Of a stretch of DNA of 51,379 nt, positions 7,334 to 41,928 are shown one piece after another. Under the pieces are notes generated by a model. That model worked only from the letters and a program-made list of their open reading frames with translations, was not told where the DNA came from and made no database searches. The position numbers and the translations under genes are program-made. The stretch's first letter is position 1, and each line of letters starts with the position of its first letter. This DNA comes from a virus (taxonomy: Duplodnaviria > Caudoviricetes): positions 1 through 51,379 of IMG/VR virus record IMGVR_UViG_3300032212_000013; one strand, written 5' to 3'.

Positions 7334-7381
7334 AGTTGTCAATGAGACACACCCCTTTCAGGGTGTGCTACGTTGATAACT
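7334..7381. promoter_or_regulatory. Early-region RBS-proximal hairpin
   Basis: AGTTGTCAATG/CGTTGATAACT outer stem, CACACCC/GGGTGTG inner stem, CTTTCA loop. Confidence 0.75.
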
Positions 7382-7815: not shown

Positions 7816-7873
7816 AGTAAGTGTTCAAGAATACACACCCTACCTTTAGAGTGTGCAGACTTCAATACTTGCT
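7816..7873. promoter_or_regulatory. Early-region RBS-proximal hairpin
   Basis: AGTAAGTGTTCAAG/CTTCAATACTTGCT outer stem, CACAC/GTGTG inner stem. Confidence 0.7.
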
Positions 7874-8094: not shown

Positions 8095-8142
8095 TAGTTG
8101 TCATTAAGAGACACTTTCTTTAGTGTCCCTTAGTGAGAACTA
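8095..8142. promoter_or_regulatory. Early-region RBS-proximal hairpin
   Basis: TAGTTGTCATTAAG/CTTAGTGAGAACTA outer stem, GACACT/AGTGTC inner stem. Confidence 0.7.
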
Positions 8143-8340
8143 GTCTCTAAGGCAAGTCTCATATGTTGAGTCTATGCCTTTCTTTAGATCGTTTTCTTCC
8201 CTGAAGTGTTTACAGTGGTTAAAGTAGTGCTTTTTAAAACAGTGCCTAGCGAAAACAGCAGAGTGGTGCTCCCAATGAGAACCGTATGGTTCACAGCCTG
8301 TAAGAACATCTTGCCTATATGCGAGTTCTAATGGTCCCAT
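8140..8340 (-). CDS. Hypothetical protein
   Basis: 66 aa ORF with GAAAGG RBS. Confidence 0.55.
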   Translation of the reverse strand: MGPLELAYRQDVLTGCEPYGSHWEHHSAVFARHCFKKHYFNHCKHFREENDLKKGIDSTYETCLRD

Positions 8341-8362
8341 GTCACCGGGCCTTTCTTTGTTA

Positions 8363-8423
8363 AGTTAGGTTTCTTTCAAGCACACCCCTATGGTTTAAGT
8401 GTGCGCTTGAAAGAAGCCTAGCT
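8363..8423. promoter_or_regulatory. Early-region RBS-proximal hairpin
   Basis: AGTTAGGTTTCTTTCAAG/CTTGAAAGAAGCCTAGCT outer stem, CACAC/GTGTG inner stem. Confidence 0.75.
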
Positions 8424-8585
8424 ATTCTTTAGCTTTGCCTCTAGAGATGCAAGCCTATTTATAGCCTCGTCTATCTCAAAGTCAGACTCGTGGTGTATAG
8501 CGTAGTATAGATATATTCTAGCGTCTAACACCTCTTCCTCTAGACTTGGTTTCTCTATAAAGAGTATCATACTATTCCTTGTCAT
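8418..8585 (-). CDS. Hypothetical protein, 55 aa (not in ORF track)
   Basis: MTRNSMILFIEKPSLEEEVLDARIYL...; GAAAGG RBS; stop lies inside the hairpin arm. Confidence 0.55.
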   Translation of the reverse strand: MTRNSMILFIEKPSLEEEVLDARIYLYYAIHHESDFEIDEAINRLASLEAKLKNS

Positions 8586-8860
8586 GGGTATAGCCTTTCG
8601 GTTTTTTGGGAAATTGCTTGTTAGTGAGAATCACCTCTCATTAAAGGCCTTCAAAGTCAATGTTTAGGGCTATATGGCCTTTTTCTGATATTTATATTCT
8701 CAGGGGCCTCAAAAAAAACAGGTTATAGATTTAAAAGAATCCAAAGTACAAAGATTACGTTTTTGGGCGTAACCCTATGTCTTTAATAGACTTCCAGCGT
8801 TTCAAAAACCTACTTCACAGCTCTAAACGCAGAGATTGAATTGAGAGATTTACTCTACAT

Positions 8861-8919
8861 AGGGAGAGGGGGAATCGAACCCACCATTATACAGAACATT
8901 CTGTATATACCGTCACCCT
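8861..8919 (-). ncRNA. tRNA-like element lacking a D stem, copy A
   Basis: AGGGTGA/TCTCCCT acceptor-like stem, CGGTA loop, TATACAGA/TCTGTATA arm, GG-TTCGATT-CC T-arm. Confidence 0.5.
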
Positions 8920-8925
8920 TACTTT

Positions 8926-9102
8926 TCAGGCCTTTAGCGCAGCCCGATAATCTTTGGCTAAGTTAGAAAGGTGTGGGTCTAAAACCCCGGCCTCCTTTAA
9001 CTTAGTTACGAATTCCATGGTGGTTATGGGCTTTTTAGGTGTGACCTTGATATACTTCGGGTTCACATAGACCCTGCCACCACAGCTTAATACTTTAACC
9101 AT
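8926..9102 (-). CDS. Hypothetical protein, 58 aa, first gene of the early array (not in ORF track)
   Basis: MVKVLSCGGRVYVNPKYIKV...AALKA; GGAG RBS. Confidence 0.6.
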   Translation of the reverse strand: MVKVLSCGGRVYVNPKYIKVTPKKPITTMEFVTKLKEAGVLDPHLSNLAKDYRAALKA

Positions 9103-9114
9103 TGTTCACTCCAT

Positions 9115-9248
9115 GCTAAGGTTGTAGAAATCTAGACTCACTATTCTGTGAAGCTAGATTGCTACAAACTCAGCTAGCACTGTGCGAGCTACCAAACAAA
9201 ACACACTAATAAAATCAGTGTGTTAAGTTTGTATAGCCGACACAGTGC
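9115..9248. promoter_or_regulatory. Two tandem long hairpins upstream of the first early gene
   Basis: TTGTAG-AATCTAG/CTAGATT-CTACAA (9115-9174) and GCACTGTG..AACACACT/AGTGTGTT..CACAGTGC (9177-9248). Confidence 0.65.
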
Positions 9249-9271
9249 ATACTGTGCAACAACTATCAGAA

Positions 9272-9935
9272 ATTCCCTTCCCCTGCTAGGCTCTTATTTC
9301 AAGCGCTACTTACGGTTGTGGGATACGGATTATGCAATAGAGATCTTACCCCTACATTATGCACTCCTAGACGTTCGCCTATACCTTGACATATAGAGTT
9401 ATTTAAGCTCTAAAGGTATAAGCTTTCTCCCTCACTATGGGGAGTTCGCCTACTAGGCTGGAAAGCTGAGTTTCCAGTCCCGCCGCAGTCTATGAACGGC
9501 CCCGCCTAATATTGCAACCACATTAAGAGTCTAGTGTAGCCTTATGCTTGATACAGCCACGCGTGTATCTCGCTATTCGCGGGGGCGTTGTCACTTTGGA
9601 GAGTTCGCCCGTTGACTGATAGAGGTTGTGTAACACTCCCTTGGTTCTTCCCGCCGATCCGCTGTGCGTATCTTATTAAACGGTGAAGGGAGAGTATGGT
9701 AGGCCAGCGAACGGTATCAAGTTAGTGTGATACTGGCTGGTAGGCCTATCATGCCGGATTTCAACCGGCTTTGGCTCCGCAGTCATGATATTGATACAGC
9801 CGTGGCTCTCATAAAGCCGGGGCCTATAGTAGGTGAGGCGGAATTGGTGCCGTGCGTCCGATCTAGTGAAGGGTCTGAAATCTGAAGCCTTGCGGCGACG
9901 CCTCCCTCCTAAGCGAAGGGTATGCCAAAGGGATA
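9272..9935 (-). ncRNA. Candidate large structured ncRNA (~660 nt), family unassigned, strand tentative
   Basis: No ORF of 60 aa or more; over 10 nested stems; ends pair; GCAA tetraloop and UUGAAAU T-loop on the minus strand. Confidence 0.5.
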
Positions 9936-10015
9936 AACTAATATAGCTTGTAGGCTAGAAGCTAGGATACATGGGGTATACAACGATAAGCCTACGATAC
10001 AGAGCCTGTAGGTAG

Positions 10016-10222
10016 CTAGTTGTTGATATCATTAGACTTACACTGGTCCGACCAGTATAAGCCTATACAGTGTATAGACTTATGACGAATGTAAAGTTAG
10101 CCTACACGTAAGATTAGCCTTACAATCGCTGTAAGCCTATACAGTATATAGAGTTATGACTGGTCCGACCAATAAAACAACTGGTCCGACCAGTTATAAA
10201 CCTATGCTATGTATAGGCTTAT
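10016..10222. promoter_or_regulatory. Palindrome cluster: 3x ACTGGTCCGACCA and 3-4x TAAG-N17-CTTA-like sites
   Basis: First motif at 10042, 10159, 10180; second at 10058, 10132, 10197 and, more weakly, 10016. Confidence 0.7.
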
Positions 10223-10270
10223 GTAGAATGTAAAGCTAGTGATACAAGGCTATGTAGCCTCGATACGCTC

Positions 10271-10640
10271 CCAGGACACCAGGACACCGGGACGGGGCCG
10301 GGTGACAGAACGCCAGGACGACCACACCAGGACGACACCAGGAGCTTGCCAGGACGTCCCATGGTGACACCAGGACACCAGGACACCGGGGCACTCCCCC
10401 ATGGCACCAGTGTACAAGCCAGTGGTAAGCAGTGACACAAGGGTAAGCCAGTGATACACGGTGATACACAGTGACAGCAGAGCTAAGCAGTGATCCCAAT
10501 GGTAAGCGGTGTAAGCCAGTGTCACTAGTGCCAAGCACTGTCAGCCACTGTCACTCACTGTTAAACGCTGTCAGCCATTGTTATACGAGGCTTCCGAGGC
10601 TATCACTGTCTCCCACTGGCTCCCACTGGCTAGCACTGTC
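10271..10640. repeat. Short-repeat region (CCAGGAC, then CAGTG flipping to CACTG); candidate pac site or origin
   Basis: 8 CCAGG plus 3 CCGGG in 10271-10390; CAGTG repeats up to ~10523, CACTG repeats thereafter. Confidence 0.65.
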
Positions 10641-10717
10641 AAACACTAACAGACGGTGGCGACCACCGCGTATGCTATATACTAACCTTTCACAGAAAAT
10701 AAAAAAATTTTTTCAAG

Positions 10718-10746
10718 TTGAATTCTTAGCTCGAATTTCTTAAACT
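10718..10746 (+). promoter_or_regulatory. Sigma70-type promoter for the rightward arm
   Basis: TTGAAT-17 bp-TAAACT with upstream A/T tracts, just before the GAAAGGAG RBS of 10770. Confidence 0.65.
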
Positions 10747-11000: not shown

Positions 11001-11464
11001 CCGACCAAAGAAGAGAGCTGGCTGGGGGTGACATGTTACCTCTGAACAAATGCTGCCCAATCCGGCAAAAGGTAGTGCTAGCTTTAGACAAAGTGTTACA
11101 TGCAGATTTCTGTGGTGTGCCGGATACCGAGTTACTTTCTGTGCTACGGTTTAACCCCAACGAGAAGAACACGACTCCTACACTGTGCTTTAACTATTGC
11201 CCTTGGTGTGGAGAAGCTCTAAAGTACCCTACTGAGGACCAGATAAACTCTAACCGTAATACTAGCGTTAGACTGGTGAAAGGTAAAACCTACACCTCTC
11301 TTAATAAGGAGAACTGGTTCTGTGTGAAAGTAGACCATGAGAGGGCTATTATGTTCAGAAACTACAATAATCAAACCTACCAGTTCTTCCTTAATGGTAT
11401 CTTGGATTCCAGTGACCGAGAGCTGCGGGTGCAGTTTAGGATTAACCCAGATGATCCAACCTAA
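10997..11464 (+). CDS. Hypothetical protein
   Basis: 155 aa with FNYCPWCG zinc knuckle; coupled to its neighbours. Confidence 0.7.
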   Translation: MTDQRRELAGGDMLPLNKCCPIRQKVVLALDKVLHADFCGVPDTELLSVLRFNPNEKNTTPTLCFNYCPWCGEALKYPTEDQINSNRNTSVRLVKGKTYTSLNKENWFCVKVDHERAIMFRNYNNQTYQFFLNGILDSSDRELRVQFRINPDDPT

Positions 11465-11735
11465 GCCTAGGGTAGTAAAAACCAAGGCTATATTCGCTAA
11501 GAGACTCCTCAACACCATTCTATCACGGGGTATCTCTTACGAAGAAATATCGGCAAAAGCCGGTGTCACTTACACTAAGGTGGTGAAGTTCATAAGCAGC
11601 AATAACCAAGTAAAGCCTACCTTGGAGCAAGTTTCTAAGCTCGCTGAAGTCTTGGAGGTAGACGAGGAGTGGCTTAGAGGTTACAATGAGCCCAAGATAA
11701 CCTTAGAACAGCTATACCCCGACACGCCATGGTAG
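11451..11735 (+). CDS. XRE-family HTH transcriptional regulator
   Basis: RGISYEEISAKAGVT...PTLEQVSKLAEVLEVDEEWLRG; start moved to 11451. Confidence 0.8.
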   Translation: MIQPKPRVVKTKAIFAKRLLNTILSRGISYEEISAKAGVTYTKVVKFISSNNQVKPTLEQVSKLAEVLEVDEEWLRGYNEPKITLEQLYPDTPW

Positions 11736-41194: not shown

Positions 41195-41342
41195 ATTCTG
41201 GTTGCCCGTCTATTTTACCACGCTCGTAGACCTCCCGTAACAGCTTTCTTAAATTCAAGTTAGTGCTAGACTTACCATACAATCTCTCAATTATGATCTT
41301 GTTTAGTTTCACCATTGTCTCGTCTTCAAATTGCTTGTCCAT
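41160..41342 (-). CDS. Hypothetical protein
   Basis: 60 aa ORF with AGGAG RBS. Confidence 0.55.
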   Translation of the reverse strand: MDKQFEDETMVKLNKIIIERLYGKSSTNLNLRKLLREVYERGKIDGQPEYVEAHGYIRDC

Positions 41343-41928
41343 GTAAGCTCCTAGTAATGTTCCTTATGGTTGTGAGTATGTAGTAAGAATAGTTAGCGCC
41401 CCTACCAAGCAGAACTCCTGCTTTACTGACGCTGTGGCCTTGGAGAATAAGCTTTAGCACCTCCCTTTGTTTGGTGTTACATAGGCTCATGATGTCTTGA
41501 ACCTCTTGTTTTGACTCGACTCTACTTATATGTTCGTCTTCTACATAGGGTACTTGTGTGAGGTCTTCCTCTTCTACTCCGGTTCCGTCCAGCCAATTAA
41601 TTATAATGATTTTAGGATTGTCTGGGGTTCTGCTTCTTGATTCCCTTCTGATGTAGTCTTTAACACTGTATTCCACTATTAGTATAAGCCATCGCTTTAA
41701 GGTCTTCCCCTTATCAGAATCATATGGCCTCCAATTCTTATCACTAAACCAATCACACAGAACGAACGCAACATAGGACAGGAGATCTTCGGCCTTAGGT
41801 TTGCTTATTTTAGCTAAACAGAACCTGACTCTGAACAACTCTAGTATTTCCTCACACAGAACCTCCTTTTCCTTTTGACTATAACCCTTAGGTATCTTAC
41901 TTCTTGTTCTTCTACTAGGCATTAACAC
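41326..41928 (-). CDS. Sigma-70/ECF-like RNA polymerase sigma factor
   Basis: YDSDKGKTLKRWL...KDYIRRE (region 2-like) and KQREVLKLILQGHSVSKAGVLLG (region 4 HTH). Confidence 0.7.
   Translation of the reverse strand: MLMPSRRTRSKIPKGYSQKEKEVLCEEILELFRVRFCLAKISKPKAEDLLSYVAFVLCDWFSDKNWRPYDSDKGKTLKRWLILIVEYSVKDYIRRESRSRTPDNPKIIIINWLDGTGVEEEDLTQVPYVEDEHISRVESKQEVQDIMSLCNTKQREVLKLILQGHSVSKAGVLLGRGANYSYYILTTIRNITRSLHGQAI

What the first reader, a model, noticed from the sequence alone, without database searches (positions are those of the whole stretch)
9272..9935. Candidate novel ~660 nt ornate ncRNA at the head of the early transcription unit
Seen in sequence: this stretch is ORF-free and densely self-complementary. 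The ends pair (TCCCTT 9274 with AAGGGA 9928). A long-range stem CTAGGCTCTTA 9286 / TAAGAGTCTAG 9524 encloses several hairpins (9380/9413, 9427-9444, 9456/9471). ATGGTAGGCC 9696 / GGCCTATCAT 9743 has an inner stem, and GAGGCG 9835 pairs with CGCCTC 9899. On the minus strand there is a GCC-GCAA-GGC GNRA hairpin (9887-9896), a GCCGG-UUGAAAU-CCGGC T-loop hairpin (9753-9769), and a TATATT -10-like box at 9940-9945 just upstream. Short motifs recur: TTGATACAGCC at 9548 and 9791, GTTCGCC at 9373, 9444 and 9603, CCGCAGTC at 9483 and 9777. Established knowledge: phages carry large structured RNAs such as GOLLD and ROOL. Inference: this is such an RNA, possibly a new class, made first on infection; the repeated motifs could be protein-binding or sponge sites. 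The strand is uncertain because several stems have G-T wobbles favouring the plus strand.
Basis: partly seen in the sequence, partly recalled or inferred. Interest (0 to 1): 0.8.

Follow-up and report, generated by a model that had tools for sequence, protein, structure and literature searches.

The report
Orphan long folded phage RNA candidate
A 660-base stretch with no sizeable gene, just ahead of the predicted early genes of an uncultured phage that likely infects planctomycetes, is predicted to fold into a long nested structure matching no Rfam family, so it is probably a new large phage RNA, but no related copy was found to prove it.

Summary
The stretch holds no ORF of 60 codons and has no Rfam match (GOLLD and ROOL tested). 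The minus strand folds better than shuffles (z -4.1, 0 of 70); the plus strand does not (z -1.5, 5 of 70). A nested long-range core of five helices is predicted on both strands. With 39 confident long-range pairs it tops 68 control window-strands (maximum 35), but 3 of 69 shuffles reach it, and 2 of 14 other windows of this genome beat its z-score. Pseudoknot, kissing-loop and duplication tests were negative. Short repeats are enriched. No homologue was found, so covariation is untested, and no RNA data bear on it. Best reading (0.4): a discrete minus-strand early RNA that works like GOLLD or ROOL but is neither. The scan noted similar RNAs at the head of early regions on other phage DNA before, one in a planctomycete phage.

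The parts
9272..9935 (-). Candidate structured non-coding RNA, about 660 nt (strand inferred)
   Evidence: No ORF of 60 codons; no Rfam match; minus-strand z -4.1; G+C about 51% against 45% for the genome
9478..9843 (-). Predicted nested long-range core: helices 9478/9843, 9498/9824, 9555/9807, 9564/9798, 9613/9785
   Evidence: Pair probabilities 0.93-1.0 on minus, 0.63-0.98 on plus; kept in all wider windows tried
9694..9769 (-). Long hairpin 9696/9752 with inner stem 9712/9735, and adjacent 5-bp hairpin 9753/9769 with a 7-nt T-loop-like loop on minus
   Evidence: Pair probabilities 0.76-1.0 on both strands; the T-loop likeness is recalled knowledge of tRNA, not a tool result
9377..9479 (-). 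Hairpin cluster 9380/9420 (inner 9394/9412), 9427/9444, 9456/9479, flanked by two of the three GTTCGCC copies
   Evidence: 9380/9420 at 0.96-0.98; the other two 0.24-0.85 by strand
9286..9534 (.). Crossing stems 9286/9534 (11 bp) and 9333/9516 (7 bp): possible pseudoknot or alternative fold
   Evidence: Probability 0 in the nested ensemble; share no base with the core; forcing them costs 7 kcal/mol on plus and 14 on minus
9432..9609 (.). Near-exact 19-nt direct repeat (9432-9450 and 9591-9609, 17 of 19 identical)
   Evidence: 0 of 500 shuffles reach 17 of 19, but the length was chosen after the fact; as a local alignment p 0.04
9200..9224 (-). Terminator-like hairpin with T-rich tail, one of four CACAC..GTGTG hairpins of the early region; likely 3' boundary
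   Evidence: family at 7348, 7834, 8381, 9202, with 6 matches in the window against 0.41 expected
9113..9174 (-). 27-bp imperfect stem just before the next gene; possible processing site (inferred)
   Evidence: 9110-9235: z -6.96 on minus, -5.06 on plus
9940..9945 (-). TATATT -10-like box; no matching -35, so weak as a promoter
   Evidence: Present; not called by either promoter scan
10040..10245 (.). Upstream palindromic repeats, candidate promoter or operator sites (not part of the RNA)
   Evidence: Repeat families D2 and D8; one 8-of-12 sigma-70-like site on minus at 10172

Best explanation
The stretch is likely the gene of a free-standing RNA of about 660 bases, probably read on the minus strand as the first part of the phage's early transcript and predicted to fold into a nested long-range core, which would act like GOLLD or ROOL as an abundant folded scaffold or decoy during infection. 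Shown: the coordinates, the lack of a sizeable ORF, the lack of an Rfam match, the position between the minus-strand small genes and the plus-strand terminase operon, and a terminator-like hairpin 50 bases downstream. Predicted: the fold. Inferred: the strand, a start near 9935 from a promoter in 9940-10250, a 3' end made at the 9224-9200 hairpin or by cleavage in the 9174-9113 stem, and the scaffold or decoy role, which rests on analogy alone.
For: Minus-strand z -4.1, 0 of 70 shuffles. 39 long-range pairs at p>0.9, above all 68 control window-strands of this genome (maximum 35) and reached by 3 of 69 shuffles. Core helices hold on both strands and in wider windows. Excess of 7-bp perfect helices, p 0.013, and of repeated 8-mers, p 0.002. 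It lies in the only gap of 550 bases or more without a 70-codon ORF in a compact 51-kb genome. The downstream hairpin belongs to a family of four in the minus-strand small-gene region, and the 9110-9235 flank folds better on minus. GOLLD and ROOL occur in phages and prophages, often near tRNAs (PMC5737381; 10.1101/2024.12.08.627333).
Against: No homologue in any search, so no covariation. 2 of 14 control windows have a lower z on some strand and 4 of 14 reach -3. The boundaries were chosen by eye to include the end pairing, which is not robust. Kissing-loop and second-layer helix tests show no excess; unconstrained helix packing gives only z -1.7 to -1.9. Local 150-nt windows inside it are mostly unremarkable, while the flanks reach z -7 to -11. 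No convincing promoter at the 5' end. Several hairpins extend by G.U pairs on plus, not minus.
Confidence: 0.4

Rival explanations
1. It is a cis-acting 5' leader of the early operon: the folded nascent RNA would help polymerase read through the 9224-9200 hairpin and the later early-region hairpins, or would stabilise the message.
For: It lies directly upstream of a terminator-like hairpin and a run of same-strand small genes with three more such hairpins; no strong sigma-70-like promoter was found between it and the first gene.
Against: No match to a recalled boxA consensus inside it at up to 3 mismatches; the 5 matches in the 3.8-kb locus lie outside it and equal chance, 4.75. No Rfam leader matches. 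A self-contained nested fold of this size fits a released RNA better (inference).
Confidence: 0.17
2. It is a structured RNA, but read on the plus strand, perhaps from a promoter served by the phage's sigma-like protein.
For: G.U pairs extend 9286/9534, 9456/9479, 9694/9754 and 9712/9735 on plus; forcing the crossing stems costs only 7 kcal/mol on plus; a weak sigma-70 region 2 hit, below the Pfam cut-off, at 41329-41928 (E 0.0016).
Against: Plus-strand z is only -1.5; 5 G.T against 1 A.C is not significant (p 0.17); neither scan calls a plus-strand promoter within 300 bases before 9272.
Confidence: 0.13
3. It is a DNA-level element, part of the genome-end, packaging or origin region, and its complementarity comes from short binding words repeated in both orientations.
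For: It adjoins palindromes and short-repeat arrays at 10040-10660; words such as GCCTA and GATAC recur in both orientations inside it and upstream; as single-stranded DNA it also beats shuffles, z -2.8, 0 of 20.
Against: Its word enrichment (best p about 1e-5) is far weaker than in 10260-10680 (1e-11 to 1e-13) and uses mostly other words; its helices are nested and interrupted, unlike the near-perfect palindromes next door.
Confidence: 0.14
4. It is an unconstrained or decayed spacer whose folding is only the tail of what a hairpin-rich early region gives by chance.
For: Most single tests give p between 0.01 and 0.1 and several were tried; other early-region windows have lower z; no relative found.
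Against: Top long-range pairing among 68 controls; repeat excess p 0.002; 660 spare bases are unusual in so compact a genome.
Confidence: 0.16

Closest known systems
GOLLD RNA (Rfam RF02032)
   Same: Large, helix-rich, non-coding, phage-borne; GOLLD often lies near tRNAs (PMC5737381), and a weak tRNA-like remnant lies 350 bases downstream here.
   Different: No match to the model at E<=1; many GOLLD RNAs exceed 800 nt and share a conserved 3' region (10.1101/2024.12.08.627333), which is not detected here; multimer formation untested.
ROOL RNA (Rfam RF03087)
   Same: Similar size (ROOL averages 581 nt), multistem fold, phage context (PMC5737381).
   Different: No match at E<=1 (that search rang in none of its 14 controls, so it is a weak negative on its own; searches agree). 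ROOL's three pseudoknots rest on covariation; none is shown here.
Phage early leader RNAs cut by RNase III (T7 type) and RNA antiterminators (HK022 put); recalled, not from a call
   Same: Position ahead of an early operon, followed by a terminator-like hairpin and a long imperfect stem.
   Different: Those leaders are much shorter (recalled); no sequence match tested beyond Rfam.

Membership tests
GOLLD | Match to covariance model RF02032 (conserved 3' domain) | tested here: not met
   0 matches at E<=1 in the own genome; the search rang below cut-off in 1 of 14 controls;
GOLLD | Phage or prophage location, often near tRNA genes | tested here: inconclusive
   Phage yes; no tRNA gene; only a tRNA-like remnant with z -0.7
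ROOL | Match to covariance model RF03087 | tested here: not met
   0 matches at E<=1, none
Large ornate RNAs (GOLLD, ROOL, OLE) as a kind | Multistem fold with pseudoknots supported by covariation | not testable with these tools
   No homologue could be fetched; single-sequence pseudoknot tests were negative
Large ornate RNAs (GOLLD, ROOL, OLE) as a kind | Discrete, abundant transcript; RNA-only multimers | not testable with these tools
   No expression or structure data available for this stretch
tRNA, tmRNA, RNase P, group I and II introns, other Rfam families | Match to the family's model | tested here: not met
   ARAGORN 0 genes; cmscan of 9260-9950 at E<=10 gave one truncated microRNA match, E 2.7
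boxA-type antitermination leader | boxA sequence in the leader (consensus recalled) | tested here: not met
   No match inside 9272-9935 at up to 3 mismatches

The most novel reading that the evidence does not exclude
A new family of giant pseudoknotted phage RNA from planctomycete phages, made first on infection, in which an 11-bp and a 7-bp stem thread through a nested core and repeated sequence words let copies swap partners and self-assemble into an RNA cage or decoy unrelated to GOLLD and ROOL.
Probability: 0.2. Interest if true: 0.75.

Novelty: new variant of a known kind. Interest (0 to 1): 0.45.

Why it matters
Only a few classes of large ornate bacterial and phage RNAs are known, and their function is open (10.1101/2024.12.08.627333; PMC5737381). 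A further, unrelated class in a phage of planctomycetes, placed ahead of the early genes rather than in a tRNA island, would widen the set of natural RNA folds and point to an early-infection role. Until a relative or a transcript is found it is a lead, not a discovery.

Tried and rejected
Homologue searches, all without a true hit: blastn on INPHARED phages (none) and PLSDB plasmids (2 hits at E 8); four motif-pattern scans of IMG/VR (5, 3, 12 and 36 stretches, none with further likeness) and one of GTDB (1 stretch, no further likeness); blastn or nhmmer on loci around capsid (80), terminase (79) and early-gene relatives (80); whole-record blastn on 22 and 5 virus records (best E 0.19); two single-sequence covariance models on 49 virus records and 80 loci (best non-self E 0.17). 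These relatives are distant (about 26-49% protein identity) and mostly fragments, so the blanks say little. Queries with the terminase large subunit alone and the small-subunit alignment found no locus. No RNA holder listed; the one DNA holder may be this DNA's source, and its contig matches 8900-10300 without differences. Tandem duplication of a motif module: chain score 28, p 0.35; best split alignment p 0.07; rejected as unproven. Kissing loops and second-layer helices: no excess. Antisense target in the own genome: no match of 13 bases or more, 4 of 12 bases against 4.1 expected. CsrA-type sponge: 13 GGA on minus, 12 of them mostly paired. Likeness to HDV-like, hammerhead and group I cores was considered by eye from recalled consensus motifs and dropped; Rfam agrees. 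No likeness to the ORF-free stretch at L186:6640-7440.

Full report
Setting. The window is a tailed phage genome of about 51.2 kb whose ends overlap. It encodes terminase, portal, capsid, tape measure, DNA polymerase, helicase and primase. Named relatives of its terminase and capsid protein come from Planctomycetota, so the host is probably a planctomycete (inference). Small genes run on the minus strand from about 9100 leftwards; the terminase operon starts on plus at about 10770. The stretch 8108-10218 is the only gap of 550 bases or more without a 70-codon ORF. Calling the small genes 'early' is an inference from their size and layout.

Observation. All 17 motif and stem-arm positions are exact. 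Two plus-strand ORFs of 58 and 52 codons overlap the stretch and have no Pfam hit. Rfam gives nothing at gathering scores over the whole window and only chance-level matches at E<=10. GOLLD and ROOL models give no match at E<=1. ARAGORN finds no tRNA or tmRNA.

Is the folding more than chance? Moderately. The minus strand has z -4.1 (0 of 70 dinucleotide shuffles), the plus strand -1.5 (5 of 70). Without G.U pairs the values are -3.2 and -2.4 (25 shuffles). Perfect helices of 7 bp or more number 18 against 10.3 (p 0.013), but 6-bp and 8-bp cut-offs are not significant. Against the genome itself the z-score is not exceptional: of 14 control windows (8 shuffles each, fixed SD 7.5), 2 are lower on some strand and 4 reach -3; the two lowest are in the small-gene region. 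What sets the stretch apart is long-range pairing. It has 39 pairs at p>0.9 spanning over 150 bases on minus and 35 on plus, against a maximum of 35 in 68 control window-strands; 3 of 69 shuffles reach 39. Five or six of those pairs are the end pairing on which the boundaries were drawn.

The fold. Both strands predict the same nested core: 9478/9843, 9498/9824, 9555/9807, 9564/9798, 9613/9785, closing on hairpins 9696/9752 and 9753/9769, with a hairpin cluster at 9377-9479. The core survives all wider windows tried; the end pairing does not. The 11-bp stem and a collinear 7-bp stem (9333/9516) cross the core but share no base with it, so a pseudoknot is possible. An unbiased test did not support this: no extra helix of 6 bp or more is left among unpaired bases on minus, fewer than in shuffles (67 shuffles), and loop-loop matches are not enriched (150 shuffles).

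Repeats. Repeated 8-mers are enriched (14 against 3.8, p 0.002) and a 17-of-19 repeat at 9432/9591 is reached by 0 of 500 shuffles at that length. The motifs recur in the order A-B-C-A-B-C, but a collinear duplication is not significant (p 0.35; best split alignment p 0.07). Parts of two motif types lie in predicted helices, and their duplication gives alternative partners, which would allow switching or pairing between copies (inference only).

Strand. Not settled. Several hairpins extend by G.U on plus, but the counts are not significant. Minus is favoured by the z-scores and by context: a terminator-like hairpin with a T-rich tail lies 50 bases downstream at 9224-9200, it is one of four CACAC..GTGTG hairpins in the minus-strand small-gene region, and the flank 9110-9235 folds better on minus. 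The TATATT box has no matching -35 and is not called by either scan.

Relatives. None was found. Blastn of phage and plasmid collections, five motif-pattern scans (checked in 16, 27, 37, 44, 80), loci around capsid, terminase and early-gene relatives (checked in 27, 29, 39, 55), whole virus records and two single-sequence covariance models gave only chance hits. The models were run on 49 virus records (44 of the capsid and terminase relatives, chosen for length, and 5 pattern hits) and on the 80 early-gene loci. These relatives are distant and mostly fragments. Close relatives exist as proteins (terminase 94%, capsid 70%, small terminase 69%), but their DNA could not be reached, and cellular planctomycete genomes were searched only by one strict pattern. 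Covariation, the decisive test, is therefore open.

Mechanism. I commit, at 0.4, to a free-standing minus-strand RNA made at the start of the early transcript, ended at the 9224-9200 hairpin or cut in the 9174-9113 stem, and acting as a folded scaffold or decoy. The role rests on analogy with GOLLD and ROOL, which are phage-associated, of unknown function and form RNA-only cages (10.1101/2024.12.08.627333: abstract start, passages and part 1 of section 22 seen; PMC5737381: passages seen). Rivals are a cis-acting leader (0.17; no boxA match), a neutral spacer (0.16), a DNA-level element of the neighbouring repeat region (0.14) and a plus-strand RNA (0.13). Together the three RNA readings make about 0.7.

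Novelty. It works like a large phage RNA if real, but fails membership of every Rfam family. Six paper searches (listings only, unless named above) showed no description of it. The survey PMC10690425 lists viral candidates of at most 151 bases (passages); the 11-mer is not in the six supplementary files searched, but files 1, 2 and 4 were not searched and could hold a piece of it. This scan's earlier notes report similar RNAs ahead of early genes in other phages, and one planctomycete-phage case with the same unproven verdict; look-ups by sequence and place found no look-alike. These notes are unchecked leads, not support.

Verdict. Observation partly confirmed; interpretation plausible but unproven; interest 0.45.

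Noticed in passing
window 8861-8919, minus: tRNA-like remnant: acceptor-like stem, one long hairpin, T-arm with a canonical-looking 7-nt loop, no D-arm. ARAGORN misses it, z -0.7, and Rfam gives only the T-arm (tmRNA model, E 0.14). Could be a processing signal or a decayed tRNA.
   Followed up: partly
window 8926-9102, minus: Orphan 58-codon ORF with a GGAG site between the candidate and the tRNA-like remnant; its only database hit is itself.
   Followed up: partly
window 7348-7367, 7834-7855, 8381-8403, 9202-9222: Family of CACAC..GTGTG hairpins between the small minus-strand genes (6 matches in the window, 0.41 expected); possible terminators or processing sites.
   Followed up: partly
window 10040-10660: Palindromic repeats, then arrays of 8-10-base repeats (CCAGGACA, CACTG types): candidate genome-end, packaging or origin sites. 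A plus-strand sigma-70-like site with an A/T tract follows at 10718.
   Followed up: no
window 41329-41928 and 11337-11735: Weak sigma-70 region 2 match (E 0.0016, below cut-off) and an HTH_3 protein (E 1.7e-6), candidate phage transcription regulators.
   Followed up: no
L186:6221-7608: Another phage sharing the 260-aa early gene has a 1.4-kb ORF-free stretch upstream of it with a G+C-richer part of about 700 bases and no Rfam match; unrelated in sequence to this candidate. A possible separate RNA candidate.
   Followed up: partly
L258 and L261 (G012, G002): Closest relatives in gene content (polymerase, helicase, primase, terminase, capsid; 25-45% identity) have another gene order and no like element in their 728- and 612-base gaps.
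   Followed up: partly
window ends: The last about 139 bases repeat the first with one difference, so the record looks like a complete circular genome although it is classed as linear.
   Followed up: no
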